The notes under the pieces are model-generated. The model had not been told where the DNA came from and ran no database searches. It was given only the letters and a program-made list of their open reading frames with translations. A program made the position numbers and the translations under genes. A stretch of DNA of 64,000 nucleotides from assembly GCA_036253495.1 (NCBI GenBank), contig GCA_036253495.1_4125.1; one strand, given 5' to 3'. This stretch comes from a phage. Shown here in pieces: positions 40,631-53,454 of this stretch. Positions within the stretch are counted from its first letter, which is position 1. Each line of letters starts with the position of its first letter.

Positions 40631-40656
40631 GGGAGACATTTGTCTCCCTTTTTTTA
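40631..40656. terminator. bidirectional rho-independent terminator
   Basis: gggagaca-tt-tgtctccc hairpin with T-runs; sits between convergent genes. Confidence 0.65.
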
Positions 40657-42627
40657 TTTCACGGTTACTAATGTTCTTCCTGCAAAACGAACATCAGGAG
40701 AAGAAGGAATACTATAAACTACACCAGTTAATGTAAACTTAACACTATCAACATCAACTTTAACAAATTCATCAGTTGCTACTTGTTCTTGAATTTCAGC
40801 ATTAACTATATCAGTTTCTGGAACTGTCAGTCTGTAATATGCACCATCAAGTACCCAATTATCAACAGTGAATAATGTAGTTCTTACTGTACCAGAACCA
40901 ATCGGAACCCATTTACCATCAACTTTCTGCATTGATGTTCTATTCTGTTCAGAGTACGCAATCATACCATCAACACCTTCACTGTCATTGACAGTTGTTA
41001 GTACTGGTAATTGGATACCATAACGGTTAATACGTGTACGCAACACATTACTGTCATATACAGATAAATCCGCATAACCACGAACATCCATACGCAATTC
41101 ACCGTTTAGTAGTTTCATATTAATATCGTTGGTAACGTGTGCAAATCTAAATGAATTACCACTGGTTAGCAGGATTCCATTAAAATTATTATTAGCATTG
41201 TTAAAATTAGTTTCTTTATTAAACGTGGACACCGAGTTAACTGTTAATAAATTAGTTGAACTACCAGTTCCTAATATAGTATCCCCTTTAACGTTCAAAT
41301 TACCATTAGTTGTAACATTTGAAACCGCCGTAACATCACCCGTTAAAGTACTAATACCATCAACTTCTAAGTTTCCATGTAATTTGGTTACACCATTTTG
41401 CATTTCAACTTGTACTTTGTTCATAGAACTAAATGACAAAATATTATTTTCACCACTAATGCCTACGTTTGTGTTGGAAGCATTAGCAAAACGTAATGTT
41501 GGTGCAGATGCGGGAGTAGTAGTGCTTTGATATAAATTCAAAGAACCATTTGTTACTCGCACACGTTCAACACCTGCTGTGGTTAAACCAATAGCGGCAT
41601 CGGCTGGGTGGAAAATACCAGTTTTTGTGTCAGTCCATTTACTTGGATCGTTTCCTGGGTTAGTATTTGGGTCATATGGAGCGTTATTAAAGCCTATAGC
41701 TGGCTCTGTAGCACTACCATAAGTTACCCCTAGTCTTCCTTTGCCTATCAGTCCATCATCAACCATAGAGTCACCAGTGCGGCGTAAGCCCTCTAATACG
41801 AGGTTATCTAAGGTAGTTTGAACTGTACCTGCGTTGGTACTAAATTGACGTTGACTACCAACCATGATAGTGTTATCATACAGTACTGAAGAAGCTGAAA
41901 TACTAGCTCTTGACTGACGTAGGCGAATGTTTTTAGTTTCAGTGATGATAATCCAGTCACTATCAGCTAATGCAGTCTGGCCTTGTGGTGTCAAAGATGT
42001 ATCAAAAGGTGTAGTGATTGATTCGTCTTGTGCCAAATTCACAAGACCTTCATGACCACTTGCTGGGATTGCAGTTGTTACAATACGAGCAAACGCATAA
42101 CTTACCAATTTTTTAGTTGGTTCAATTGGGTTTTGATCTATATAATATAGAATTTCAATCCAATCACCTTGACCAGTTGGGTTCACTGGTGTGAATTTAA
42201 CTGGGCTGGTTGTAGGGGTATTTTGTGTATAGTGCTCTTGTGCGGCATCCATAATACCACGAACTACATAATAATCACCATTCAAAGAAACTGATGGTGC
42301 AGGTAATGCAGCATAGGATGCTGGTGGGTTTGTATCATCTTCAATTGCATCATATGTACCAAGGAATTGCAATCCACTTGTTACAGAATCTGGTAATTGA
42401 GATGACAATAGTTTACCATTTGCATCTAGGTTTGCAAAACGTCTATACGCAACTGAACCATCTTCAAATTCGAGAACACCTTCGAATGCTTTCCATTCAG
42501 TGTTGTATCGAATCATACCTGTACGCATTTGGTCTGCTGTTACTATCGTTGGGGCTTTTGGTAGTTCAAGGAAAGCTTTGCTATCTATGATAACACCACC
42601 ATCACCACGAATTCTATTAATTGACAT
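40654..42627 (-). CDS. putative tail fibre protein
   Basis: 657 aa, Thr/Asn/Gly/Ser-rich with repetitive beta-like segments; adjacent to other fibre genes. Confidence 0.5.
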   Translation of the reverse strand: MSINRIRGDGGVIIDSKAFLELPKAPTIVTADQMRTGMIRYNTEWKAFEGVLEFEDGSVAYRRFANLDANGKLLSSQLPDSVTSGLQFLGTYDAIEDDTNPPASYAALPAPSVSLNGDYYVVRGIMDAAQEHYTQNTPTTSPVKFTPVNPTGQGDWIEILYYIDQNPIEPTKKLVSYAFARIVTTAIPASGHEGLVNLAQDESITTPFDTSLTPQGQTALADSDWIIITETKNIRLRQSRASISASSVLYDNTIMVGSQRQFSTNAGTVQTTLDNLVLEGLRRTGDSMVDDGLIGKGRLGVTYGSATEPAIGFNNAPYDPNTNPGNDPSKWTDTKTGIFHPADAAIGLTTAGVERVRVTNGSLNLYQSTTTPASAPTLRFANASNTNVGISGENNILSFSSMNKVQVEMQNGVTKLHGNLEVDGISTLTGDVTAVSNVTTNGNLNVKGDTILGTGSSTNLLTVNSVSTFNKETNFNNANNNFNGILLTSGNSFRFAHVTNDINMKLLNGELRMDVRGYADLSVYDSNVLRTRINRYGIQLPVLTTVNDSEGVDGMIAYSEQNRTSMQKVDGKWVPIGSGTVRTTLFTVDNWVLDGAYYRLTVPETDIVNAEIQEQVATDEFVKVDVDSVKFTLTGVVYSIPSSPDVRFAGRTLVTVK

Positions 42628-42708
42628 TATTGACTATCCTCATACAATTATATCAAGTATTTATTTTAAGAAAAAGAAAAGGCCAACCATAGTTGACCTT
42701 AGTGTTTA

Positions 42709-43497
42709 TTAATTACGTACTGGGATCTTAGATTGATCTGGATATACAAAAGTTGCTGCTTTTTGTGCATCAAAAATAGTAGTTGCTGCATCAATTGCAG
42801 TTTGTTGTGCAATTGCGTCATTAAAGTATCCGTCGATTTGTGCCAATAGACCATTGAAAATTTCAACCATCTCATCACCATCAACTGTTACAATCTCACC
42901 ACTATCTAGATAGATATTAATAGTTTGGGAACCATTAATAGCTTGTGTATAATAGTTGTTTAACATCTGACGACCATTAACATCACTAGGGAATGTTACA
43001 TCAACTGTTCCGTCAGCATTTTTATAATGATAACCACTATTAATTAAATTATCTCGTTCATATGCGGTTCTTTGCTTCAAATCAGCTTTAACATCAGCCA
43101 AATCCATATCAATGTAGGTTTGTGTTTTTACTGCGGTTAATGCTGCATATGGTGCTACTTCGGTTTCGTTAAATGTAACTACTGCATCACCTTCAATTTT
43201 GCGATATTCAAGGTATTCACCCTTTGAATTTCTATCGCCAACAGATACATATTCTAACCACCAGAAGCCTTCTCTCTTGCGAATTTCATCAGCAGCTTTT
43301 GGTATTTCTGCATTTGGATTTAGTTTAATACCATAGAATGGACGAACATCGTCGTATGTATAAAAATACTCACCACTAGGATCATTGGGTGGTTGTGGAC
43401 TACGTGATTGACCTTTAACACCTCTAGGATTAGAAATTATTTTACCTAGTTTGTAATCTGCCGCTGAACTACCACTCACATATGTAAATTGAGCCAT
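42709..43497 (-). CDS. hypothetical protein (possible fibre assembly/accessory)
   Basis: ORF between fibre genes. Confidence 0.45.
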   Translation of the reverse strand: MAQFTYVSGSSAADYKLGKIISNPRGVKGQSRSPQPPNDPSGEYFYTYDDVRPFYGIKLNPNAEIPKAADEIRKREGFWWLEYVSVGDRNSKGEYLEYRKIEGDAVVTFNETEVAPYAALTAVKTQTYIDMDLADVKADLKQRTAYERDNLINSGYHYKNADGTVDVTFPSDVNGRQMLNNYYTQAINGSQTINIYLDSGEIVTVDGDEMVEIFNGLLAQIDGYFNDAIAQQTAIDAATTIFDAQKAATFVYPDQSKIPVRN

Positions 43498-43536
43498 AAT
43501 ATTTCCTCATTTAAAATTAAATTATTTACAATACAG

Positions 43537-43556
43537 TGCGGGGAAAACCCCGCACC
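43537..43556 (-). terminator. intergenic hairpin (possible terminator/attenuator)
   Basis: gtgcgggg-aaaa-ccccgcac stem-loop between the giant fibre gene and the next gene. Confidence 0.35.
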
Positions 43557-43563
43557 ATTTATA

Positions 43564-46500
43564 TTAAGCAGTACGTTGTGCAATAAACATATCTACTACT
43601 GGGCTGTATCCATCATAAATCAACTGAATGATACTAACTGTATTTTGTGTTTTGTTAATCTCACCACCTACTACTGCATAAGTACCATCAGTGATAAGTT
43701 CACGTCCACCAGTTGCATCTTGTTGTACGTAGATATAGTAAGAACCAGCCTTACCACTTCCAATCAATCCGTTAATTGGACCTAGTGTAGTTGATGCTTG
43801 GTCTAGTGTAATATAGTACACATTAGACTCACCATCAGGTGACCATGTTCCTTCACTTGGAGCAGCAACAGATGCCTGTACTTTAGCAGCAGGTGTAACA
43901 GCATACTTTTTAGTAGTTACACTTTCAGTTACTAAATCAGCAATATCTGTATGTAGTGTGCCTTCAATAGTCACATCTTTAGCAAATGTTGCATTTTCAG
44001 CAAATGAAGATGTACCAGTAACTGTGATTGCATCAGCAGACGCAGAACCTAGTGTTACAGCACCTTTAAGGTTAGTAGCACCAGTAATTTCTGCACCACC
44101 CGCAACTACATTGAAGCCACCCGCAGTGATTTCGATACCACCAGTACTAACAGTTAGTTTCTTACCGATAGTAACAACATCAGATAGTGTAGTTGCACCA
44201 GTAACTGCTAGAGTAGTGTTAATCTTAGCACTTGCCATAGTTGCTAGGCCAGAAGTTGTAATAGTTGCAGTAGTTACTGCACCAGACGCACTAACGTTTG
44301 CACCAGACACATCACCAGTTGTAGTGATTGCACCATCACCAGCGTTGATTGTAGCACCATTAGTTGCAATACCACCTTTCAAAGTACTCAAACCTTCAGC
44401 AGTGATTGTTGAACCAACTGTTAGGGTTGTACCAGCAGCGATAAAGGTTGTAGAAGTTAGAGATTTAACTTCGACTGCACTTGCAGATTGGTCCAGTGTA
44501 CCAATAATCTTACCACTAACAGTAAAGTCGCCAGTAGTTACTGCGTTACCATTAACAGTTAGGCTGTTAGCTGTTGAACCTTGTGCACCGAATGTTGCAG
44601 CACGTGCGTGCATATCTTCATCAGTAGTAATATCCTCAACTGCGTGAATTGTGGTATTAGAAGTTAATGAGTTCAGGGAAATATCCTGACCAGCCAAATC
44701 TACTGAACCGTTAATATTACCAGCAACAAATAGGTTACTACCAATATAAGTATCACCAACAAATTGGATAGTTTCCGGTCTTGAACTAACTTTAGGACCG
44801 ATGATAATACCTTTCGCAGAAATATCAGCTTTAGGCATAGTCACAGTAGACGCATCAGAGATGTTAACAGATGCACCATTAACAACCAAAGCACCACCAA
44901 CAGTCAAACCAGTAGTTACCGCTGCACTACCAAATGTACCTTTACCAGTTGTGGTAATTGTAGTACCAGTAATGTCACCAGCAGCAGTGATTGCGGTATT
45001 TGCACTAACAGCCAAACCACCAGTTAGAGTGCTTAGACCAGTAACTTCTAGTGTTTCTCTGGATTTCAAGCTTTTCGCATCAACTGGAGTAGTAGATAGA
45101 TCCAATGTTCCAGGGTTTAGTGTTCCATTAATGGTAACATCACCAGAAACTGTTAGTGAACTGAGAGCAGCTTCACCAGCGGTTAGTTTTCCAGTTAGAT
45201 TTGTAGTACCAGTAACAGCCAAAGCACCACCAGCACTTAGAGCACCAGTAACTTCCGCACTACTTAATGTAGCTTTACCACTTGTTGAAAGAGTAGTAGT
45301 GTTAGTACCACCATTTAGAGTTGAAACACCAGTAACAGTTAGTGTAGTACCAGCAGTTACAGAACCGAGTGCAGTTAAGTTAGCACTTGCATCAACACCT
45401 TCAACGTTTAGAACAGCAGAACCTAAGTTTAGGCTACCTTCAGGTGTAAATGCACCTTTAACAGTTAGGTCACCAGTAACAACTGCATCACCTGAAACAT
45501 CAACACTTGCTAGTGTTGCTTTACCAGAAGTTTGAAGAGTTGCGGATTGAACTTCACCAGTAGTTTTGATTAATGCAGAACCTGCATCAACACCACCAGT
45601 TAGAGTACTTAGTCCAGTAACGCCTAATGTTTCACCAATTGTCAAATAACCACCAACAGTTGCATCATTATCAACAGCTACACCAACACCAGTAGCACTT
45701 ACTTGGATTGATTTAGAAGTAATTTTACCACCAACATCAACAGTACCATCAAAAGTTGCAGCACCTACAGTATGTAGGGTTGAACTTAGTGTAGTTGCAC
45801 CAGAAATTGTTGGAGCACCAGTAATTGTACCAGTGGTTAGAATTAAGTCAGTACCAACTGTAGTACTTGTAGTACTTGCTAATGAGTTAGTTTCCAAATC
45901 AGCATTTGTGATAGTCAAGTTACCATCGATAGTAACGTCATTATCAACTTGTAGTGATTTAACAGTCAAATCAGTTGCACTAAAATCAACGGAAGTTGCA
46001 GTGAAAGCACCTTCAACGTGCAAATCACCAGTAACATCTGTTGGTTTAGCTAGTGTTATTTTATCTCCAGCACTTGTGTATGAACCAGCACTTACTGAAC
46101 CATCAACCACTGCCGCAGCAGCAACTTTCAAGTTTCCAGAAGCAACAGTCAAGCCACCTTTAGCAGTAATACCACCGACGTTTACAGTTACTGCGTTACC
46201 AAATGTTGAAGCACCAGTAACTTCAAGTGCACCAGTAACGGTCGCTTTACCACCGACTGTTGCATCACCAGTAACATTCAATTTACCAGCGGTTGCTTCA
46301 GTACTTGTTAGTTTTGGTAGAATACTTGGTTCAGTATTTTCAGTAACAGTAATAACACCAGAAGAAGTTAGTGATTTAACAGTTAGATCTGCCGCAGCAG
46401 CATTAATTGCACCATCAACAGTTAAGCTTCCACCAATGGTTGCACCTTCAGTTGTTGTTAATGATTTAGAACTGATATCAACTGGGCTTAAATCTAATCC

Positions 46501-49107
46501 ACCTTCAGGTGTAAATGTACCTTTAACAGTTAGGTCACCATGTACAACTGTATCATTTTCTAAATTAATACCATCGGTATTAACAATAGAAGGAGTAGTT
46601 ACAGAAACAGCAGAAACAGCAGCCAATGTACTTTCACCAGTAACATTTAATGTAGAAATGTTTGCTGTAGTTACTGTTGCTGTACCAGTTGTACTGTTAG
46701 TTGTAGTAATATCAGTACTTTGTAATTTTGGTAGAATGTTAGTTCCAGTAGCATCATTACTAATCACAGGACCAGCACTAGTTAAAGATTTAACACTTAC
46801 ATCTGCTGCACTTAAATCTACAGTACCATCAACAGTTAGGTTTCCACCTACATGTGCACTTTCAGATACATCAAGTGTTTTAACAGTTACATCAGCCGCA
46901 CTTAGGTCAATAACACCAGCCGTTAAAGTTCCAGTAACATTCAAATCACCACCAACTGATGCATTATGATCTACACTTAGACCAGTTCCGGTTCCGGTAA
47001 TTTGTGCGGAAGCTGCGGTCACTTTAGTAGTTGCTGTGATATTTGGGGCAGTGATAGTACCGTCAGATTCAATTGAACCAGTTTCTAATGCATCAGAACC
47101 AACACCAGTAACTTTACCAGTAACTTCAACTTTCAAGCCACTAAAGAGTGCGTTTCCACCAACACTTAGATTAGTCCCCACTGCAACTTCTTCAGTTGTG
47201 GTTACAGAATTAGGTAGAATGTCTAGACCATCAACGTTTGCTTTAATTGCAGCACCAGATAGTGTACCAGTAACGTTCAAATCTTTAACAGTGGTTGTTT
47301 GACCAACAACTTCAAATAAACCATCAACTACCGTGTTACCAACCAATGTGGTAGTACCGTCAACTGTTAGGTTTCCAGATGCAGTTACGTCAACACCTTT
47401 AACATTACCAGATGCAGTTACATCTTTAGGAGTAATGTCTTGACCAGCTAGTGTAATACCAGTTGTAGTTCCAGTAACAGTCAAATCAGTTATAGTTGTG
47501 CCTTTTAGAACGGAATCCCCATCAACTGTTAGTGTACCAGAAGCATCTAGATTAACACCACTAATATTACCAGAAGCAGTTACATCTTTAGGTGTAATAT
47601 CTTGACCAGAAATGTCAGGAACAAAACCAGTAACTGTACCAGTGAAATTAACGTCTTTGAATTGAGCCTTACCATCCACATCTAGAGTTAATGTATTTGG
47701 ATCTTGTACCGCATTACCAGTTATTTTCAAATAATCAAATAGGTTCAAACCTTTTGCTGTAATACCGTAGGTTGCTGCTGATACATCACCAAATGTAGCA
47801 GTTTTCAGTACTGTTAGATTTGCTGGAGTCATTAACTCGGACTGTACTTCGTTTTGTAGAATTACAGTTGGGCGTAAACCAGGAGCAGTATATGTAAAGT
47901 TAACTTTAGCATTCGTGTCTGCTACGTTTCCACCTAAAGTGACAGATTTTAAATTAGCATTCGCAGTTGAACCAACAATATTAGATTCTAGGTTTAATGC
48001 ACCTTTTAGTGTAGTTAGTTTTTCAACAACTAAATTATCCGCAGTAATATCACTTAGTACAAAGTTACCTGATAGTGTTCCAGTAATATCCAAATCACCA
48101 ACAGTAGTTTTACCAGTAATATTAGTAGTTCCATCAACTTGTAGGTCAGTTAATTGTGTTTTACCTTTAGTTACACGTAGAATTGGTGTGGTTGGATCTT
48201 GTATTGAGTTACCAGAAAGTGTTAGGTAATCAAATAGGTTCAAACCTTTTGCGGTAATACCATTGGTTGCTGCTGATACATCACCAAATGTAGCAGTTTT
48301 AAGTACTGTTAGATTTGCTGGAGTCATTAGCTCGGACTGTACTTCGTTTTGCAGAATTACAGTTGGGCGTAATCCTGGAGCAGTGTATGCAAAGCCTAGG
48401 CGTGCAGTCGAGTCCGCTGCATTAGAACCCAAAGATACAGCTTTTAGGTTTGCTACAGTATTAGTACCAATGATGTTTGATTCTAGGGTTACAGCACCTT
48501 TTAATGTAGATAGTTTTTCAACAACTAAATTATCGGTATTAACATCCCCTAATGTGAAATCACCATCTAATTTACCAGTTACAGTTAGATTCTCAACGGT
48601 TGCACCAGTTGCAGTAATATCAGTTGCTGATACAGTTGCAATGGTTGCTTCATTAGCAGTTAATTTATCAAAGCTTGCAGTGGTTGCTGCCGCAGCAGTG
48701 AGGTTACCATTTAATGTTGTTGTACCATTAACTTCTAATGCAGAAGTGGTGGTATCTTGAAAAATTGCTTTTCCTGATGTTTGTGTAATATCTTTGGCAA
48801 AAGTAGAAGTGCCATTAAAAGTAGCATTGGAATTAATAGTTGCTGTATCGGAACCAGCAGTAGTATTACCAATAACTGTATTGCCAAGTACATCCATTCC
48901 ACCCTTAAGTGACGCTTTGCCTGTAACATCGAGTGTTGTGTTGATTGTTGCTTGATCTACTGTAATTGCAGTGAAGGTAGCATCAGCGAAACTAACGGTC
49001 CCCTTAATGGTTACGTTTTTATCGAAGACCGCATTACCTTTAACTGATAATTCTTTACCAACATTAGTATTACCAGTTACTGCTAGATCTGTTTTTATCG
49101 AGTACAT
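43564..49107 (-). CDS. giant tail fibre protein (1847 aa, repetitive)
   Basis: Very long Thr/Gly/Ala/Val/Ser-rich ORF with short beta-repeat motifs and an internal duplicated domain. Confidence 0.7.
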   Translation of the reverse strand: MYSIKTDLAVTGNTNVGKELSVKGNAVFDKNVTIKGTVSFADATFTAITVDQATINTTLDVTGKASLKGGMDVLGNTVIGNTTAGSDTATINSNATFNGTSTFAKDITQTSGKAIFQDTTTSALEVNGTTTLNGNLTAAAATTASFDKLTANEATIATVSATDITATGATVENLTVTGKLDGDFTLGDVNTDNLVVEKLSTLKGAVTLESNIIGTNTVANLKAVSLGSNAADSTARLGFAYTAPGLRPTVILQNEVQSELMTPANLTVLKTATFGDVSAATNGITAKGLNLFDYLTLSGNSIQDPTTPILRVTKGKTQLTDLQVDGTTNITGKTTVGDLDITGTLSGNFVLSDITADNLVVEKLTTLKGALNLESNIVGSTANANLKSVTLGGNVADTNAKVNFTYTAPGLRPTVILQNEVQSELMTPANLTVLKTATFGDVSAATYGITAKGLNLFDYLKITGNAVQDPNTLTLDVDGKAQFKDVNFTGTVTGFVPDISGQDITPKDVTASGNISGVNLDASGTLTVDGDSVLKGTTITDLTVTGTTTGITLAGQDITPKDVTASGNVKGVDVTASGNLTVDGTTTLVGNTVVDGLFEVVGQTTTVKDLNVTGTLSGAAIKANVDGLDILPNSVTTTEEVAVGTNLSVGGNALFSGLKVEVTGKVTGVGSDALETGSIESDGTITAPNITATTKVTAASAQITGTGTGLSVDHNASVGGDLNVTGTLTAGVIDLSAADVTVKTLDVSESAHVGGNLTVDGTVDLSAADVSVKSLTSAGPVISNDATGTNILPKLQSTDITTTNSTTGTATVTTANISTLNVTGESTLAAVSAVSVTTPSIVNTDGINLENDTVVHGDLTVKGTFTPEGGLDLSPVDISSKSLTTTEGATIGGSLTVDGAINAAAADLTVKSLTSSGVITVTENTEPSILPKLTSTEATAGKLNVTGDATVGGKATVTGALEVTGASTFGNAVTVNVGGITAKGGLTVASGNLKVAAAAVVDGSVSAGSYTSAGDKITLAKPTDVTGDLHVEGAFTATSVDFSATDLTVKSLQVDNDVTIDGNLTITNADLETNSLASTTSTTVGTDLILTTGTITGAPTISGATTLSSTLHTVGAATFDGTVDVGGKITSKSIQVSATGVGVAVDNDATVGGYLTIGETLGVTGLSTLTGGVDAGSALIKTTGEVQSATLQTSGKATLASVDVSGDAVVTGDLTVKGAFTPEGSLNLGSAVLNVEGVDASANLTALGSVTAGTTLTVTGVSTLNGGTNTTTLSTSGKATLSSAEVTGALSAGGALAVTGTTNLTGKLTAGEAALSSLTVSGDVTINGTLNPGTLDLSTTPVDAKSLKSRETLEVTGLSTLTGGLAVSANTAITAAGDITGTTITTTGKGTFGSAAVTTGLTVGGALVVNGASVNISDASTVTMPKADISAKGIIIGPKVSSRPETIQFVGDTYIGSNLFVAGNINGSVDLAGQDISLNSLTSNTTIHAVEDITTDEDMHARAATFGAQGSTANSLTVNGNAVTTGDFTVSGKIIGTLDQSASAVEVKSLTSTTFIAAGTTLTVGSTITAEGLSTLKGGIATNGATINAGDGAITTTGDVSGANVSASGAVTTATITTSGLATMASAKINTTLAVTGATTLSDVVTIGKKLTVSTGGIEITAGGFNVVAGGAEITGATNLKGAVTLGSASADAITVTGTSSFAENATFAKDVTIEGTLHTDIADLVTESVTTKKYAVTPAAKVQASVAAPSEGTWSPDGESNVYYITLDQASTTLGPINGLIGSGKAGSYYIYVQQDATGGRELITDGTYAVVGGEINKTQNTVSIIQLIYDGYSPVVDMFIAQRTA
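47699..48690. repeat. internal tandem duplication (~495-bp unit) within the giant fibre gene
   Basis: Sequence from 47699 (ggatcttgtacc...) recurs from 48194 (ggatcttgtattg...) with high identity over more than 200 bp, then diverges. Confidence 0.7.
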
Positions 49108-49221
49108 TCATTTCCCTCCATTTGGGTAAAATTAAAATACTTATTAACTGTGTTAATATGTAATTATTTATTTGTATATATGAAAAAGCCAGGCACTAAG
49201 ACATCATACCTGGCATAAATC

Positions 49222-50124
49222 TTATTTCCCAGCGATAACAATCTTACCACTGAATTGTTCATCAGATACAAACGTAACATTACCATCTGTATCAATTTGT
49301 GTATCCACGAATACCAAATCAAACGGTGCAGATGCTGTTGAACCAGGTACATCATTACCATAGATTGCCACGTACAAAGAATCAGGACTTTGTTTATGTG
49401 TATCAGCAGTGACAGTGTAAGTAAATTTATCAGCAGCAGCAATCCAGTCTGCTTTGTTAATCAATTTTCCGTATGGGGTAGTCATAGCGGTTGCTCCTAT
49501 AATATTAACTTTAACCTCAGTAATACCATCTGGGAGGCCAAGCATTTTAATTGTAATATCCCCAAATCCAGACACTGTAATTTCGGAATTAACCACACTA
49601 CGAATATTTGGATTACCGTCTGTTGGTGTATCTTCCATTTGAACTAAAATGTCACGACCACGGTCATGTTGTGATTCAGGAATGGTATATGTATATTCAT
49701 CGACTGTTCCAGGAATAAGAACAAATGCTGCAACTGGGACAGAGAATGAAGTTACATAAGGACTATCGGTTACTGGACCACCACCATTAAATGGTTTCCA
49801 AATCCCAAGGTCTTTAATATATATTTGAACGATGTTGGTTGCATCAACCATAAAATAAACATCACCATCAGTTCCTAGTGTATCAGCAGGAGCGATATCA
49901 CCACGCAAAATACCACTTGCACCACTACCACCATGAGCATTAAAATATGCTAAGGTTACTAGGTGTGTGTTTGCGGTTGGGTCACCAGCAGAAACCGGAA
50001 GAAGTCTTGTTCCAGAATAATCTTGGATTTGCACAATATCACCATTTGTTGTGAATTGTGCACCATTTTTACCTAGAATAAATTTCTTCTTCAAAGTTCC
50101 TTCTAAATTAGAAAAAACTGCCAT
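49222..50124 (-). CDS. putative receptor-binding protein sharing an N-terminal anchor domain with the tailspike
   Basis: N-terminus MAVFSNLEGTLKKKFILGKNGA is near-identical to that of the adjacent 723-aa protein. Confidence 0.5.
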   Translation of the reverse strand: MAVFSNLEGTLKKKFILGKNGAQFTTNGDIVQIQDYSGTRLLPVSAGDPTANTHLVTLAYFNAHGGSGASGILRGDIAPADTLGTDGDVYFMVDATNIVQIYIKDLGIWKPFNGGGPVTDSPYVTSFSVPVAAFVLIPGTVDEYTYTIPESQHDRGRDILVQMEDTPTDGNPNIRSVVNSEITVSGFGDITIKMLGLPDGITEVKVNIIGATAMTTPYGKLINKADWIAAADKFTYTVTADTHKQSPDSLYVAIYGNDVPGSTASAPFDLVFVDTQIDTDGNVTFVSDEQFSGKIVIAGK

Positions 50125-50141
50125 TTTGAAATATCTCCTTA

Positions 50142-52313
50142 TTATGGAAGTGTAATGTATGTAATTGGGGATTCGGCTAACAATGGAGTCCCATCAGGGA
50201 AAGCAGTTTTTATTTCATCTGCTATATCAATGCAAAATACCGAGTTGACCACGTATGTAGCTCGTGTTATATGAGTGTGGAGATCAGTTCCATTTTCACC
50301 AGCACCAGGAATTACAATTCTTGTACCTGCTGCTTTAGCATATTGGTTTGTACCCCATGCAGTGTTATGTGTTCTAATAGTTTTAGCACCAACTACTGCT
50401 GCTTTAAGCTGTTCATATTTTCCTACGAATGCACCAGCTACTGTTACTACATATTTACCCCCAGATTGTTTGTGTAAAATTGTTCCTTTGGGGAAATATC
50501 TACCACCTGGGAATTCATCATAAGGTAGATAATATTGCTCCGTGACTGGTATCAGTACTGGGCCACGGTGACCAGTTCCATCTATTTCAGTTGTTACCGT
50601 GAAGTTATTACCAGATTGATCTATTCTATCAACATACATTCGTGAGAATGAATAATTTGATATATTAGCGTCATCTTGAACTATATTACCAATCCAACTG
50701 GTATATGTATAATTAGTTCTGGTATAAACGCCACCACCTTCACCATCTTGATATTGACCAATTACATCTAAATTTTTTGTATAAATTTTACTGAATTTTG
50801 ATGATGATGGTAATCCACGCCAATATAATTTTTCACAAGTTATATTGTGCATATCAGTTTCGTTAGTCCATGCGTTTGCACCGGATGTGTATATTTCTAT
50901 ACTAGATTCAGGAATGAAAACGTTTTGAACTTTAAAATCTTTTGGTGGACCTGCATACCATGCATATTGGTGTGTTGCATCAGCAGGGTTAACACCCCAT
51001 GTAAATTTAATCATTCTGTTTGTTGGTGCAGTTGCTGGATCATCCAAATAGCGACCAGTTAATCCGTCAACAACAAAATCTTGACATCCATAAGTGATGA
51101 TACCTGCGGCAGTTAAGCCAGTTCCAGTTGATATTGTGGTTGATGGATATGTCTCATTATCTATTATATTAAAATTCTTACCGACTTCAACGTGTATACA
51201 TTGACGACAGTTATATACTCTATTTCGAGCAATAGTGAAGTTTTTAACATATTGACTATCTGGGATATCAACTCCATATGGACCTTTACCAGCAACACCG
51301 ATACCGATACCCCAGTTTGATAGTGGGATTGGAGCGTTAGTACCATCAACGTTTTCAATATGGTTTCCTTCAATGATTAGACCATCAGTGAAGTGTCTTG
51401 AAACTACGTTTAATTCAATACCATCACCATAGATATCGTGAATATGGTTATATGCATAGCGAGCATATTTTACTATTTCACCACTACCACCTTGCTGTAG
51501 AACACCAAAGTTAACATCGTACATTTCATTGAAACAAAAGTCGAGAATACCCTCTGAAGTTAAATCACGCATAAAGAATGCACAGGTGAATGTTGTACCA
51601 TAAAAGCGGTTGAAATAGAACTTACCATTACCACCAGAAAACTGAATATAACTACGAGCAATGTTTGCCCCTTGTATTTTACAGTTGGTTGCTGATATCA
51701 TTGTTTTACCAGTGCCAGTTAATGTGCCACCATACCATTCAATATTTTCAAAATATATTGCTTTGGATAAACGATAAACACCTTTACCTTGTATTTGGAT
51801 ATCATGAGCTTTAGCGTAATCAGCACAAGCTTGAACTGCGTCAGTATCATCAGCAATACCATCACCGATAGCACCAAATTCTTCAGGTGTTATATAATAC
51901 AAAGCTTGTTGTAGTGTTCCACCAGAAACCAAACCAATATAATCAGAACCATTAGTACTGGATAATACTTTAGTATTAACATACATTGATTTTATCCATG
52001 CACCATTCTTCTTAGCGAAAATATCTAGGATACCACCACTTTCTTGGTCTAATTGCAAATAAGTATAATTATTCTTACCAAGACTATTATCTGGGATTTC
52101 ATTCCCAAATAATACGGTTGGGTGGTCAGCGAGATACTTTGCAGTAATCGCTGAATTATCATTAATCGGTTCACCAACTTGTACGGGCAATAAGATGCTT
52201 CCGAAACTATCTGTAATAGACAGGGAATTGTTAGCATAATTAATTAATGCCCCATTTTTACCAAGTATAAACTTGGTTTTCATTGTCCCTTCAAAGTTAG
52301 AAAAAACTGCCAT
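50142..52313 (-). CDS. tailspike with pectate-lyase-like beta-helix (putative polysaccharide depolymerase)
   Basis: ITPEEFGAIGDGIADDTDAVQ resembles the Pectate_lyase_3-type motif; shares the N-terminal anchor MAVFSNFEGTMKTKFILGKNGA. Confidence 0.6.
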   Translation of the reverse strand: MAVFSNFEGTMKTKFILGKNGALINYANNSLSITDSFGSILLPVQVGEPINDNSAITAKYLADHPTVLFGNEIPDNSLGKNNYTYLQLDQESGGILDIFAKKNGAWIKSMYVNTKVLSSTNGSDYIGLVSGGTLQQALYYITPEEFGAIGDGIADDTDAVQACADYAKAHDIQIQGKGVYRLSKAIYFENIEWYGGTLTGTGKTMISATNCKIQGANIARSYIQFSGGNGKFYFNRFYGTTFTCAFFMRDLTSEGILDFCFNEMYDVNFGVLQQGGSGEIVKYARYAYNHIHDIYGDGIELNVVSRHFTDGLIIEGNHIENVDGTNAPIPLSNWGIGIGVAGKGPYGVDIPDSQYVKNFTIARNRVYNCRQCIHVEVGKNFNIIDNETYPSTTISTGTGLTAAGIITYGCQDFVVDGLTGRYLDDPATAPTNRMIKFTWGVNPADATHQYAWYAGPPKDFKVQNVFIPESSIEIYTSGANAWTNETDMHNITCEKLYWRGLPSSSKFSKIYTKNLDVIGQYQDGEGGGVYTRTNYTYTSWIGNIVQDDANISNYSFSRMYVDRIDQSGNNFTVTTEIDGTGHRGPVLIPVTEQYYLPYDEFPGGRYFPKGTILHKQSGGKYVVTVAGAFVGKYEQLKAAVVGAKTIRTHNTAWGTNQYAKAAGTRIVIPGAGENGTDLHTHITRATYVVNSVFCIDIADEIKTAFPDGTPLLAESPITYITLP

Positions 52314-52326
52314 TAATCAATCCCCC

Positions 52327-53454
52327 TTAGATGTTGTTTTCAATTGGTTGGATTGGTGCTTGCCATGCTAGAGTACAAATTACTTTCATTTGACCATAAT
52401 TACTGTTATTAACTGATTCATTAAAAACACAAGCAATGATTTCATCTTCTGCTGACGGTTCATGGTTTGTTTCATTAACGATAAAGCGTAGTGCACGGTT
52501 GATATCAAAATAATCAACTGGTGCAATAATAGTACCACCGATATCTTCTTGTGCTTCCCCACCTACACGAATGTGCATTTCAGTTACAGGGTCAATATAA
52601 GCTTGGGTGATATCAACTTCAATATTAGTTACTACATAACCTGCTGGGCATGTACCGATTACCAATACTGCGTTGGTCCATGAATGATCAATCGTGTTTA
52701 CAACGATAATTGAATCTTTACCATTCTGACCCTGATCACCTTGCTTACCTTCTGGACCAGGTTCACCATCTTTACCACGGAACTCAATACCTTCACTCCA
52801 TTCTTTTGTTGGAGGGGTGGTTTGCTTATTAATATCTACGTAATATAGTTTTCCATCAGTCGTGTTATAGAAGCAATAATCTTCTGGTAAGTTATCAATA
52901 CTTGGGAAAGCAGGACCATCACTGTCAATATGGAAACGACCACGTGGACCTTGTTCACCACGGAAATCAATACCATTACTCCATGAACCAGCTTTTTGAT
53001 TATAAAAATACACTTTACCATCGGAAGTATTATAGAAAGTATATTGGTCAAATAGACCAGTGGTTGGGAAAACAGGACCAGAAGAATCAATTTTAAATGA
53101 TTTACCTGGTGCACCAGTATCACCTTTACCAAATTCTACTGTGTTCCAAGTACTTGGTGCTACACCAGCATCATTTGTTTTAAAATATAGTTTTGCAGTT
53201 CCATTTGCTAGACTTAAATAACACCAACCTTCTGGTTTATCAACTGCAAATGTACCGTCTGGTATTTCCATACCAACATCATCAGGATAGAAATTTTTAC
53301 CATTAGTACCGTCATGTCCAACGACTAGACCCAAATCTTGTATTGTATTATCAGCGAATGTTACAATCAAATGACCAGCAGAGTTAATTACTAAACTCTT
53401 AATACCAGAATTGTTACATGAACCGCCAGACCCATTGTTGAATGAAATTGTCAT
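52327..53454 (-). CDS. tail fibre protein with collagen-like Gly-X-Y repeats
   Basis: GKGDTGAPGK, GEQGPRGR and GKDGEPGPEGKQGDQGQNGKD triplet runs separated by repeated modules. Confidence 0.55.
   Translation of the reverse strand: MTISFNNGSGGSCNNSGIKSLVINSAGHLIVTFADNTIQDLGLVVGHDGTNGKNFYPDDVGMEIPDGTFAVDKPEGWCYLSLANGTAKLYFKTNDAGVAPSTWNTVEFGKGDTGAPGKSFKIDSSGPVFPTTGLFDQYTFYNTSDGKVYFYNQKAGSWSNGIDFRGEQGPRGRFHIDSDGPAFPSIDNLPEDYCFYNTTDGKLYYVDINKQTTPPTKEWSEGIEFRGKDGEPGPEGKQGDQGQNGKDSIIVVNTIDHSWTNAVLVIGTCPAGYVVTNIEVDITQAYIDPVTEMHIRVGGEAQEDIGGTIIAPVDYFDINRALRFIVNETNHEPSAEDEIIACVFNESVNNSNYGQMKVICTLAWQAPIQPIENNI

What the first reader, a model, noticed from the sequence alone, without database searches (positions are those of the whole stretch)
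49222..52313. Two receptor-binding proteins share an N-terminal anchor; one is a pectate-lyase-like tailspike
The adjacent 300-aa and 723-aa proteins share a near-identical ~25-residue N-terminus (MAVFSN(L/F)EGT(L/M)K(K/T)KFILGKNGA) but differ in C-terminal domains. The larger one has a Pectate_lyase_3-like motif, suggesting a capsule or LPS depolymerase. This is the architecture of swappable receptor-binding modules on a common adaptor, and a candidate dual-specificity host range determinant.
Basis: partly seen in the sequence, partly recalled or inferred. Interest (0 to 1): 0.4.

Follow-up and report, generated by a model that had tools for sequence, protein, structure and literature searches.

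The report
Colanidase tailspike sharing a jumbo-phage anchor
In this E. coli jumbo phage, an enzyme spike that digests the bacterial slime polymer colanic acid has the same front-end module as the small virion protein encoded next to it; this is a normal modular design in phages, and only the module itself seems undescribed.

Summary
The ORFs at 49222-50124(-) (300 aa) and 50142-52313(-) (723 aa) exist. They share 19 of their first 22 residues, and the homology continues for about 106-111 residues (39% identity, E=2e-18).

The window is an Asteriusvirus (Rak2-like jumbo myophage), 99.6% identical to Escherichia phage A4 here. Residues 104-722 of the 723-aa protein are homologous to the solved colanidase tailspike gp150 of phage phi92 (PDB 6E0V, E=1.8e-216). 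The fold model's best match is also 6E0V. So it is a beta-helix colanic-acid hydrolase. It is already annotated as "colanic acid-degrading protein" in public records. It is not a lyase or an LPS enzyme.

The 300-aa protein is a conserved core virion protein of the whole Rak2-like clade: the anchor module followed by two beta-sandwich domains. Nothing shows that it binds a receptor. Only Asteriusvirus has the extra colanidase gene, inserted beside it with a diverged copy of the anchor.

In RaK2 and K64-1 the anchor stands alone as a 115-aa virion protein. In metagenomic relatives it heads other payloads, including other beta-helices and BNR-repeat (propeller-type) domains.

A shared anchor and a depolymerase tailspike are supported. 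"Two RBPs" and "dual specificity" are not. Interest is low to moderate.

The parts
52327..53454 (-). 375-aa 'tail protein' (p375). It lies directly upstream of the 723-aa and 300-aa genes on the same strand. It has a short collagen-like Gly-X-Y stretch and is a candidate docking partner (inference).
   Evidence: ORF. phrog_13565 'tail protein', E=1.6e-197. Weak Collagen hit. Ortholog CBB_228 detected in virions by MS. Conserved and syntenic in RaK2, GAP32, CBB, Munch and XbC2.
50142..52313 (-). 723-aa colanidase tailspike (p723): N-terminal anchor module followed by a phi92-gp150-like beta-helix body.
   Evidence: phrog_6117 'colanic acid degradation', E=4e-230. Annotated as colanic acid-degrading protein in phage A4 at 99.6% DNA identity.
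51996..52313 (-). Anchor module of p723 (residues 1-106), a diverged paralog of the p300 anchor.
   Evidence: BLASTP 39% identity, E=2e-18. 15-sequence alignment across genera. The tailspike-type copies form their own subgroup that lacks the Gly-rich loop.
52248..52313 (-). Codons 1-22 of p723, the near-invariant N-terminal peptide MAVFSNFEGTMKTKFILGKNGA.
   Evidence: 19 of 22 residues identical to p300, with 8 synonymous codon differences. M1, F4, S5, N6, G9, T10, F15, L17, G18, K19 and G21 are invariant across genera.
50148..52004 (-). Neck and right-handed beta-helix catalytic body of p723 (residues 104-722).
   Evidence: phmmer against PDB 6E0V (phi92 gp150), E=1.8e-216. AF2 model has pLDDT mostly 80-97 over residues 140-723. 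Foldseek top hit 6e0v_A, E=3.9e-60, TM 0.62/0.74. Family-invariant D297, E300, H374 and E376 are present. Homologs carry precomputed PF27800 'WcaM'.
49222..50124 (-). 300-aa conserved core virion protein (p300): anchor module followed by two beta-sandwich domains.
   Evidence: phrog_10468 'virion structural protein', E=6.7e-78. 71 full-length orthologs, none with a Pfam domain. Ortholog CBB_227 found in virions by MS. AF2 mean pLDDT 79.8.
49792..50124 (-). Anchor module of p300 (residues 1-111), the prototype copy found throughout the clade.
   Evidence: 72 phage records, all of the Rak2-like jumbo clade. Mean identity to orthologs: 84% for residues 1-22, 54% for 23-65, 61% for 66-111.
49483..49761 (-). 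First beta-sandwich domain of p300 (residues 122-214), the most variable part of the protein.
   Evidence: AF2 strands with pLDDT 64-93. Mean identity to orthologs 36%. Weakly paralogous to the second domain.
49225..49482 (-). Second beta-sandwich 'cap' domain of p300 (residues 215-300). It also occurs at the C-terminus of payload-bearing relatives.
   Evidence: pLDDT 85-96. Aligns to P0081 residues 710-792 at 39% identity, E=1e-12. HMM hits at the C-terminus of P0081, P0106 and P0115.
49183..49214 (-). Terminator-like hairpin (9-bp stem, 9-nt loop, T5 tract) starting 8 nt after the p300 stop codon. It may separate the three genes upstream from the giant fibre gene.
   Evidence: RNA fold -15 kcal/mol, z=-2.4. 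Sequence seen. Not picked up by the consensus terminator scan, whose loop limit is 8 nt.
43564..49107 (-). 1847-aa giant tail fibre protein immediately downstream (context). Its presence across genera matches the presence of full-length p300.
   Evidence: phrog_4549 'tail fiber protein'. The N-terminal 300 aa are found in 59 records covering every Rak2-like genus except Alcyoneusvirus. The CBB paper also states that CBB_226 has no RaK2 homolog.

Best explanation
The 723-aa protein is a virion-borne colanidase tailspike. It has a right-handed beta-helix glycoside hydrolase body that cuts the colanic acid exopolysaccharide, so the phage can reach the outer membrane. The body is homologous to the biochemically characterised phi92 gp150.

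The body is joined at about residue 104 to a roughly 105-residue N-terminal module. That module is a diverged paralog of the N-terminal module of the neighbouring 300-aa protein. The 300-aa protein is the ancestral bearer of the module. It is a core structural protein of all Rak2-like jumbo phages, built of the anchor and two small beta-sandwich domains, and is encoded between a conserved 375-aa tail protein and the giant tail fibre.

An ancestor of Asteriusvirus duplicated the anchor and fused it to a horizontally acquired colanidase body. This placed the enzyme in the fibre gene cluster and, by inference, at the same kind of docking site on the baseplate or fibre complex that the 300-aa protein uses. 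The near-invariant first 22 residues are the most likely docking determinant.

Shown: the homologies, the fold, the synteny, the clade-wide conservation, and virion presence of the p300 and p375 orthologs. Inferred: that the module is a physical anchor, what it docks to, trimeric state, virion presence of the colanidase, and enzymatic activity of this particular protein.
For: - Anchor homology: E=2e-18 over about 106-111 residues, with only two copies in the window.
- Selection acts on the peptide: 8 synonymous differences among the 19 identical residues in the first 22. Residues 1-22 average 84% identity across 47 orthologs, against 36-61% for the other domains.
- Body: 6E0V, E=1.8e-216. AF2 plus Foldseek gives 6e0v first (E=3.9e-60), followed by CBA120, HK620 and Det7 tailspikes. 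gp150 is reported to hydrolyse colanic acid.
- Family-invariant acidic residues and histidine are retained.
- Synteny: GAP32, CBB, Munch and XbC2 have [p375][p300 ortholog][giant fibre] with no colanidase between them. Asteriusvirus records have two anchor copies per genome; other genera have one.
- The same PF27800 body occurs behind many unrelated N-terminal particle-binding domains, including T7 tail-fibre N-terminus, P22 head-binding, tail-collar and Tail_spike_N. GAP32 has a colanidase homolog at another locus with an unrelated N-terminus.
- The anchor heads other payloads in uncultivated relatives: a beta-helix with a Peptidase_S74 chaperone, another beta-helix, and BNR-repeat domains. 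Two of these lie on one contig.
- P0081 combines anchor, colanidase and the p300 cap domain.
- Orthologs of p300, p375 and the giant fibre were detected in CBB virions by MS.
- The fibre cluster is the local divergence hot spot against 121Q: 44-71% identity, versus 75-93% for flanking genes.
Against: - I found no direct evidence that the colanidase is in the virion. The phAPEC6 MS table lists gp253 and gp256 but not gp254 or gp255, and the GenBank record has no CDS for these two intact ORFs, so they may not have been in the search database.
- PHROGs files the colanidase family under 'moron/auxiliary', not tail.
- The anchor has no detectable relative among solved structures, by sequence or profile or by fold within the p300 model. 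'Anchor' therefore rests on position and analogy.
- In the p723 model the N-module has low confidence (pLDDT 26-53).
- The docking partner is unknown.
- Residues 66-111 of the module are one copy of a very widespread fibre hairpin repeat. Part of the similarity is therefore generic fibre architecture.
Confidence: 0.7

Rival explanations
1. Both proteins are receptor-binding proteins mounted on a common adaptor, giving the phage two host specificities. The 300-aa protein's beta-sandwich domains bind a second receptor.
For: Shared anchor. The first beta-sandwich domain of p300 is its most variable part, at 36% mean identity. The whole fibre cluster diverges faster than its flanks. The weak fold resemblances are to adhesin or fibre-head type beta-sandwiches such as SdrG and adenovirus or reovirus fibre heads, but all have E>0.01 and TM<=0.3.
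Against: p300 is conserved full-length at 41-68% identity, with many invariant residues, in phages of Escherichia, Salmonella, Cronobacter, Erwinia, Yersinia, Pectobacterium and Xanthomonas. That is unusual for a host-specific receptor-binding domain. No carbohydrate-binding or known receptor-binding family is detected. Colanic acid is a shared exopolysaccharide, not a strain-specific receptor. JP4 is deposited with the enzymatic body deleted and is described as lytic. A cited study proposes flagellar structures as receptors for the Asteriusvirus SHEFM2K.
Confidence: 0.15
2. The 300-aa protein is a connector between the baseplate and the giant fibre rather than a receptor binder. Its N-module sits in the baseplate and its beta-sandwich domains hold or cap the 1847-aa fibre. 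The colanidase uses the same socket.
For: p300 is always encoded directly upstream of the giant fibre. The one lineage lacking the giant fibre, Alcyoneusvirus, keeps only the 115-aa anchor and has no remnant of the C-terminal domains (the CBB paper also says CBB_226 has no RaK2 homolog). The anchor alone is annotated as a virion structural protein in RaK2.
Against: The co-occurrence rests on a single phylogenetic event. The p300 cap domain also occurs at the far C-terminus of long payload proteins (P0081, P0203), which fits a distal cap better than a fibre socket. There are no interaction data.
Confidence: 0.3
3. The colanidase is a soluble enzyme released at lysis and is not on the particle. 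On this view the shared N-terminus is a folding, trimerisation or assembly-chaperone element rather than an anchor.
For: PHROGs places the family under 'moron, auxiliary metabolic gene'. It is absent from the phAPEC6 virion MS table. GAP32 encodes its colanidase homolog among non-structural genes such as PhoH, GroES and TyrRS.
Against: The gene sits inside the fibre gene cluster, between two proteins whose orthologs are proven virion components. Its N-module is homologous to that of a virion protein and exists alone as a virion protein in RaK2. Its closest solved relative is deposited as a tailspike. The phAPEC6 record lacks the CDS, so the MS absence says little.
Confidence: 0.1

Closest known systems
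Phage phi92 gp150 colanidase tailspike (PDB 6E0V/6E0W)
   Same: Residues 104-722 align end to end with gp150 (E=1.8e-216). By BLASTP, p723 is 52% identical over residues 86-722 to P0082, an 804-aa protein that I take to be full-length phi92-gp150-type because it matches the 6E0V chain almost residue for residue. The predicted fold superposes on 6E0V (TM 0.62/0.74). It has the same neck, beta-helix and C-terminal domain organisation. gp150 is reported to hydrolyse colanic acid.
   Different: The N-terminal particle-binding part is unrelated. The phi92-type protein has about 175 different residues (precomputed PF26208), whereas here there is the Rak2-clade anchor. phi92 is a 148-kb myophage of another lineage.
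Colanic acid-degrading proteins annotated in Asteriusvirus (A4_571, 121Q gp573, PBECO4 colanic acid-degrading protein)
   Same: Orthologs at the same locus with the same anchor-plus-body architecture. A4_571 lies in a stretch that is 99.6% identical at the DNA level.
   Different: The 121Q-type orthologs are only 62-64% identical. None of the Asteriusvirus papers I searched describes the anchor shared with the neighbouring gene.
Branched multi-tailspike systems with conserved N-terminal assembly domains (CBA120 TSP1-4; RaK2 gp526-534; Klebsiella phages with two depolymerases)
   Same: The principle is the same: different enzymatic bodies are mounted through conserved N-terminal domains, and bodies are exchanged horizontally (reviewed in PMC10253068).
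   Different: No T4 gp10-like XD domains and no CBA120-type anchor were detected. There are only two anchor-bearing proteins here, and one carries no enzyme. The RaK2 study reports that the gp528 anchor has no homologs outside alcyoneusviruses. My tblastn with the anchor found only ORF061w in RaK2, not gp528.
RaK2 ORF061w / K64-1 gp067 (115-aa virion structural protein)
   Same: Ortholog of the p300 anchor (57% identity to p300 residues 1-112) at the syntenic position after the p375 ortholog.
   Different: It consists of the anchor alone. There are no beta-sandwich domains, no adjacent giant fibre and no colanidase paralog.
E. coli WcaM (TIGR04004 / PRK10123), encoded in the colanic acid gene cluster
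   Same: The central beta-helix part, residues 263-418, is homologous to WcaM (E=4.5e-24). This explains the 'colanic acid biosynthesis protein' labels in some phage records.
   Different: The score is 84.9 bits against an equivalog cut-off of 794.6, and only about 150 of 464 profile positions match. It is not a WcaM equivalog.

Membership tests
phi92 gp150-type colanidase tailspike (Pfam PF27800 'WcaM' body) | Full-length sequence homology of the body to gp150 | tested here: met
   phmmer: residues 104-722 versus 6E0V chain residues 17-623, E=1.8e-216. All homologs carry precomputed PF27800.
phi92 gp150-type colanidase tailspike (Pfam PF27800 'WcaM' body) | Right-handed parallel beta-helix fold | tested here: met
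   AF2 model with short repeating strands and pLDDT mostly 80-97 over residues 140-723. Foldseek gives 6e0v_A at E=3.9e-60, then other beta-helix tailspikes and alginate epimerases.
phi92 gp150-type colanidase tailspike (Pfam PF27800 'WcaM' body) | Retention of family-invariant polar residues (candidate active site) | tested here: met
   D297, E300, N302, H374 and E376 are invariant in the 22-sequence alignment and present in p723. Which of them are catalytic is not known to me.
phi92 gp150-type colanidase tailspike (Pfam PF27800 'WcaM' body) | Hydrolysis of colanic acid | not testable with these tools
   Reported for phi92 gp150 only (Xu 2025, as cited in PMC13450770).
phi92 gp150-type colanidase tailspike (Pfam PF27800 'WcaM' body) | Homotrimer attached to the virion | not tested
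   No multimer prediction tool was available. I found no MS evidence for the Asteriusvirus protein.
   No PF12708 hit at E<=0.1 for the full protein. The only hit is a weak End_N_terminal match at residues 148-180 (E=0.038, below cut-off). The resemblance is at motif and fold level only.
Bacterial WcaM equivalog (TIGR04004 / NF007517) | Score above the curated equivalog cut-off | tested here: not met
   84.9 bits versus a cut-off of 794.6, with a partial match to residues 263-418.
Shared-anchor multi-RBP systems (CBA120 / RaK2 type) | Two or more proteins with homologous N-terminal domains and different C-terminal bodies in one genome | tested here: met
Shared-anchor multi-RBP systems (CBA120 / RaK2 type) | T4 gp10-like (XD) or CBA120-type anchor domains | tested here: not met
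   No PDB match for the anchor by profile or within the p300 model by Foldseek (best E=0.012).
Shared-anchor multi-RBP systems (CBA120 / RaK2 type) | Both proteins physically attached to the same adaptor or baseplate site | not testable with these tools
   Needs cryo-EM, cross-linking MS or multimer modelling.
phrog_10468 / Rak2-clade p300 core virion protein | Full-length homology, conserved synteny, and presence in virions | tested here: met
   phrog_10468, E=6.7e-78. 71 full-length orthologs. Synteny. CBB_227 detected by MS.

The most novel reading that the evidence does not exclude
The roughly 110-residue N-module, and above all its near-invariant 22-residue N-terminal peptide, could define an undescribed universal docking system of the Rak2-like jumbo phage superclade. 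In this reading there is one conserved socket on the baseplate or fibre complex. A 'bracket' scaffold (anchor, payload, beta-sandwich cap) accepts interchangeable inserts: colanidase, other beta-helix depolymerases, or BNR-repeat domains. Anchor-bearing remnants are kept after payload loss (the 115-aa RaK2 protein; the 201-aa JP4 protein, which keeps anchor, neck and the last 54 residues). That would mean the anchor is itself a required assembly component, and it would make the anchor a handle for engineering the host range of jumbo phages.
Probability: 0.3. Interest if true: 0.45.

Novelty: new member of a known kind. Interest (0 to 1): 0.3.

Why it matters
The enzyme is already known and annotated, so the practical gain is small. 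It is a well-supported colanidase that could be used against mucoid, colanic-acid-overproducing E. coli and biofilms.

The more useful result concerns virion architecture. No high-resolution baseplate structure of a Rak2-like jumbo phage turned up in my searches. This analysis identifies a conserved, structurally uncharacterised module of about 110 residues that marks the proteins likely to plug into one site of the adsorption apparatus across Escherichia, Klebsiella, Salmonella, Cronobacter, Erwinia, Yersinia, Pectobacterium and Xanthomonas jumbo phages. That gives cryo-EM model builders and phage engineers a concrete candidate for the attachment interface. It also corrects misleading annotations such as 'colanic acid biosynthesis protein' and 'MutT/NUDIX' over this gene.

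Tried and rejected
- Pfam and PHROGs on the isolated anchor of p723 gave nothing. Pfam on the p300 C-terminal part gave only a chance-level Emfourin hit.
- PDB sequence and profile searches with p300, the anchor alignment A1 and the p300 family alignment A2 returned no hits even at E<=10.
- Foldseek of the p300 model against PDB gave nothing below E=0.01, only generic tandem beta-sandwich resemblances. Against BFVD it returned orthologs plus generic fibre and collagen-like proteins at low TM.
- One BFVD hit was a 375-aa protein, which suggested that p300 and the upstream p375 might be related. hhalign of p375 against the p300 family found only a 7-residue 'DGxVYF' hairpin motif (probability 0.2%). 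Rejected.
- Recent gene conversion as the cause of the identical N-termini was rejected because of the synonymous differences.
- A word-indexed protein search with the anchor profile returned only six short proteins. The exhaustive representative search was needed to see the payload diversity.
- A search for body swapping within Asteriusvirus found none. JNE01 is a split colanidase, Turkey3 has a gene of the same length at the same slot annotated as a tailspike (its body was not compared), and JP4 is an internal deletion.
- The consensus terminator scan missed the hairpin after p300 because its loop is 9 nt. Folding supports it only modestly (z=-2.4).
- The paper on phage NST1 colanic acid-degrading enzyme (PMC4292498) is not held. 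My recollection is that it concerns a mucoid T7-resistant mutant and phage NST1, not PBECO4. This is from memory and unverified.
- The large E. coli receptor-screen preprint includes the Asteriusvirus G17, but its main text gives no receptor for it.


Full report
WHAT IS THERE

The window is part of an Asteriusvirus, a Rak2-like jumbo myophage of E. coli. The stretch 49222-52313 is 99.6% identical to Escherichia phage A4 (ON286972). There the two genes are annotated 'structural protein' (A4_570) and 'colanic acid-degrading protein' (A4_571). Each has a strong ribosome-binding site. They follow a 375-aa 'tail protein' (p375, 52327..53454) on the same strand. A terminator-like hairpin comes directly after them (49183-49214; -15 kcal/mol, z=-2.4), and then the 1847-aa giant tail fibre gene (43564..49107).

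THE OBSERVATION

The quoted N-terminal peptide is exact, with 19 of 22 residues identical. BLASTP aligns residues 1-109 of p300 with residues 1-106 of p723 at 39% identity, E=2e-18. These are the only two copies in the 64-kb window. Of the 19 identical residues in the first 22 codons, 8 use different synonymous codons. The identity therefore reflects selection on the peptide, not recent gene conversion or a nucleic-acid signal.

In an alignment of 15 copies from Escherichia, Klebsiella, Cronobacter, Pectobacterium, Salmonella and Xanthomonas phages, M1, F4, S5, N6, G9, T10, F15, L17, G18, K19 and G21 are invariant. Over 47 p300 orthologs, residues 1-22 average 84% identity to the window protein. 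The other parts of the protein average 36-61%.

THE LARGE PROTEIN

Residues 104-722 match the crystal-structure sequence of phage phi92 gp150 (PDB 6E0V/6E0W) at E=1.8e-216. An AlphaFold2 model has pLDDT mostly 80-97 over residues 140-723, with the short repeating strands of a beta-helix. Its best PDB match is 6e0v_A, 'colanidase tailspike protein gp150 of phage Phi92' (E=3.9e-60, TM 0.62/0.74). Next come the CBA120, HK620 and Det7 tailspikes and the alginate epimerases, all right-handed beta-helices.

gp150 is reported to hydrolyse the beta-1,4 glucose-fucose bond of colanic acid (Xu et al. 2025, as cited in PMC13450770). The enzyme is thus a glycoside hydrolase acting on colanic acid. It is not a pectate-lyase-type lyase and not an LPS or K-antigen depolymerase. 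The Pfam Pectate_lyase_3 model is not matched at E<=0.1. Homologs carry the newer PF27800 'WcaM' family. p723 has a partial match to bacterial WcaM that falls far below the equivalog cut-off (84.9 versus 794.6 bits). That partial match explains the 'colanic acid biosynthesis protein' labels in some phage records. The residues that are invariant in a 22-sequence family alignment (D297, E300, N302, H374, E376) are present.

THE SMALL PROTEIN

p300 is not a lineage-specific add-on. It is a core protein of the whole clade. A search returned 71 full-length orthologs of 284-309 aa plus one 203-aa fragment, and none has a Pfam domain. In GAP32, CBB, Munch and XbC2 the gene order is [p375 ortholog][p300 ortholog][giant fibre], with nothing between the first two. 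The CBB orthologs of p300, p375 and the giant fibre were found in virions by mass spectrometry (CBB_227, CBB_228, CBB_226; PMC5259590).

The AlphaFold2 model (mean pLDDT 79.8) shows the N-module followed by two all-beta domains, residues 122-214 and 215-300. These two domains are weakly paralogous to each other. No solved structure resembles p300, either by sequence or by fold (best E=0.012, TM<=0.2). BFVD returns only orthologs and generic fibre or collagen-like proteins. I found no evidence that p300 binds a receptor.

HOW THE PAIR AROSE

Asteriusvirus genomes have two anchor copies, while all other genera have one. The tailspike-type copies form their own subgroup that lacks the glycine-rich loop. 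This points to a single old duplication in the Asteriusvirus lineage, fused at about residue 104 to a horizontally acquired colanidase body.

The same body occurs behind many unrelated N-terminal particle-binding domains in other phages and prophages. Examples are the T7 tail-fibre N-terminus, the P22 head-binding domain, tail-collar, Tail_spike_N and PF26208. It is widespread in Justusliebigvirus, phapecoctaviruses and podoviruses. GAP32, a member of the same clade, carries a colanidase homolog at a different, non-structural locus with an unrelated N-terminus.

A metagenomic relative, P0081 on locus L013, has the anchor, the colanidase and the last beta-sandwich domain of p300 in one 792-aa protein. 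In effect the enzyme is inserted into a p300-like scaffold.

THE ANCHOR BEYOND THIS PHAGE

Among sequenced isolates the module is confined to the Rak2-like jumbo clade, with 72 records. Using the anchor of a metagenomic relative (P0138) as the query added one weak match, in the 440-kb Salicola phage SCTP-2.

In RaK2, K64-1 and the other alcyoneusviruses the syntenic gene encodes only the anchor, a 115-aa protein annotated 'virion structural protein'. No remnant of the beta-sandwich domains is present. These are also the only members of the clade that lack the giant fibre (also stated).

An exhaustive profile search of 1.84 billion representative proteins found the anchor in several architectures:
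- alone (113-141 aa, though some of these look like frameshift artefacts);
- with one or two beta-sandwich domains (193-300 aa);
- with its first 65-90 residues at the N-terminus of 700-1366-aa proteins carrying other payloads: a beta-helix with a Peptidase_S74 chaperone, another beta-helix, and BNR-repeat domains.

Two such beta-helix proteins share the anchor on one 120-kb contig (L014). The same search shows that residues 66-111 of the module are one unit of a very common fibre hairpin repeat, present in 5-15 copies in many collagen-like fibre proteins. The specific part of the anchor is therefore residues 1-65.

MECHANISM

Best explanation (confidence about 0.7): p723 is a particle-borne colanidase tailspike. 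It clears the colanic acid layer so that the other adsorption organelles can reach the cell surface. It is mounted through an N-terminal module copied from the core protein p300, so both proteins use the same kind of docking site in the baseplate or fibre complex. The invariant 22-residue N-terminus is the likely contact.

The homologies, the fold, the synteny and the virion presence of the p300 and p375 orthologs are shown. The anchoring role, the partner, the oligomeric state, the virion presence of p723 and its activity are inferred.

The role of p300 is open. It may be a small accessory fibre or binding protein. It may instead be a connector for the giant fibre, which would fit its truncation in the one lineage without that fibre. 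That correlation rests on a single evolutionary event.

The main weakness is the lack of proteomic evidence for the colanidase in virions. The phAPEC6 MS table skips gp254 and gp255. However, the GenBank record has no CDS for these two intact ORFs (713 and 298 aa), so they may never have been searched.

The shared anchor and the depolymerase tailspike are supported. 'Two receptor-binding proteins', 'capsule or LPS', 'pectate lyase' and 'dual-specificity host-range determinant' are not supported. Within sequenced Asteriusvirus the slot always holds the colanidase: intact, split (JNE01) or with a clean in-frame deletion of residues 152-659 (JP4). JP4 is described as a lytic phage with a narrow host range, lysing 3 of 68 clinical isolates (PMC12648861). 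The enzyme body therefore seems dispensable for plaque formation on its host. A cited study proposes flagellar structures as receptors for the Asteriusvirus SHEFM2K.

NOVELTY AND SCORE

The colanidase is known and annotated. Mounting different bodies on conserved N-terminal domains is a textbook feature of phage receptor-binding proteins (reviewed in PMC10253068). As far as my searches show, the following have not been described: this particular anchor, its clade-wide conservation, its stand-alone form in RaK2, and the anchor-payload-cap architecture. The RaK2 adsorption-complex study does not mention ORF061w. I rate this a new member of a known kind, interest 0.3.

Noticed in passing
L005 8001-11055 (phAPEC6, MK817115.1 185880-188934): The phAPEC6 GenBank record has no CDS for the colanidase or the p300 ortholog. 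Locus tags jump from gp253 to gp256, although intact ORFs of 713 and 298 aa are present. The published virion MS table likewise lacks gp254 and gp255.
   Followed up: partly
L010 4001-4606 (phage JP4, PQ330092.1): The JP4 colanidase gene encodes only 201 aa. It is a clean in-frame deletion of residues 152-659 relative to 121Q gp573 (100% identity before the deletion, 98% after). Anchor, neck and the last 54 residues are kept.
   Followed up: yes
L011 4001-6143 (phage JNE01, OR670491.1): The colanidase is annotated as two overlapping ORFs of 141 and 588 aa. This is either a frameshift or a sequencing error. The body is still colanidase-type (phrog_6117, E=7.5e-246).
   Followed up: partly
L003 10001-10348 (RaK2 ORF061w) and L004 (K64-1 gp067): In alcyoneusviruses the anchor module exists alone as a 115-aa protein annotated as a virion structural protein. 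It is followed by an unrelated 510-aa protein (phrog_14293) instead of the giant fibre. It is not discussed in the RaK2 adsorption-complex paper.
   Followed up: partly
window 48208-49107 versus 49222-52313: The giant fibre N-terminus is only 91.6% identical (protein level) to phage A4. The adjacent p300 and colanidase genes are 99.6% identical at the DNA level. This suggests a recombination boundary between p300 and the fibre gene, near the terminator-like hairpin.
   Followed up: no
window 40654-53454: The minus-strand fibre cluster is the local divergence hot spot against 121Q: p375 71%, colanidase 62%, p300 64%, giant fibre 44%, the 262-aa protein 44% and the 657-aa protein 65% identity. 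Flanking genes are 75-93% identical.
   Followed up: yes
window 43958-48955, + strand: Several long ORFs (up to 378 aa) run antisense to the giant fibre gene. Their translations are low-complexity and rich in V, P, A, T and S. They look like by-products of the repetitive fibre coding sequence rather than genes.
   Followed up: no
window 49222-50124 (protein P0001): A protein identical to p300 is recorded at NCBI as 'hypothetical protein ABV23_RS01885 [Escherichia coli]' on a 357,761-nt contig. The phage genome therefore seems to have been deposited as part of an E. coli assembly.
   Followed up: no
L016 3695-5716 (GAP32_128): GAP32 encodes a 673-aa colanidase homolog (28.9% identity) among non-structural genes (PhoH, GroES, TyrRS). 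Its N-terminus is unrelated to the anchor. This looks like an independent acquisition within the same phage clade.
   Followed up: partly
L014 10001-20688 (Logan SRR18476386 contig, 119,912 nt): An uncultivated phage carries two beta-helix proteins of 780 and 705 aa that share anchor residues 1-65. Between them lie two paralogous proteins of about 900 aa and a 199-aa protein (phrog_3573 / phrog_26864) that share an N-terminus of their own (MSKKI.G.L.V...). This may be a second shared-N-terminus set.
   Followed up: no
window 52327-53454: The 375-aa tail protein has a short collagen-like stretch (GKDGEPGPEGKQGDQGQNGKD). It also has three copies of a 'D-G-K-(V/L)-Y-(F/Y)' hairpin motif that resembles the hairpin in the second half of the anchor.
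   Followed up: partly
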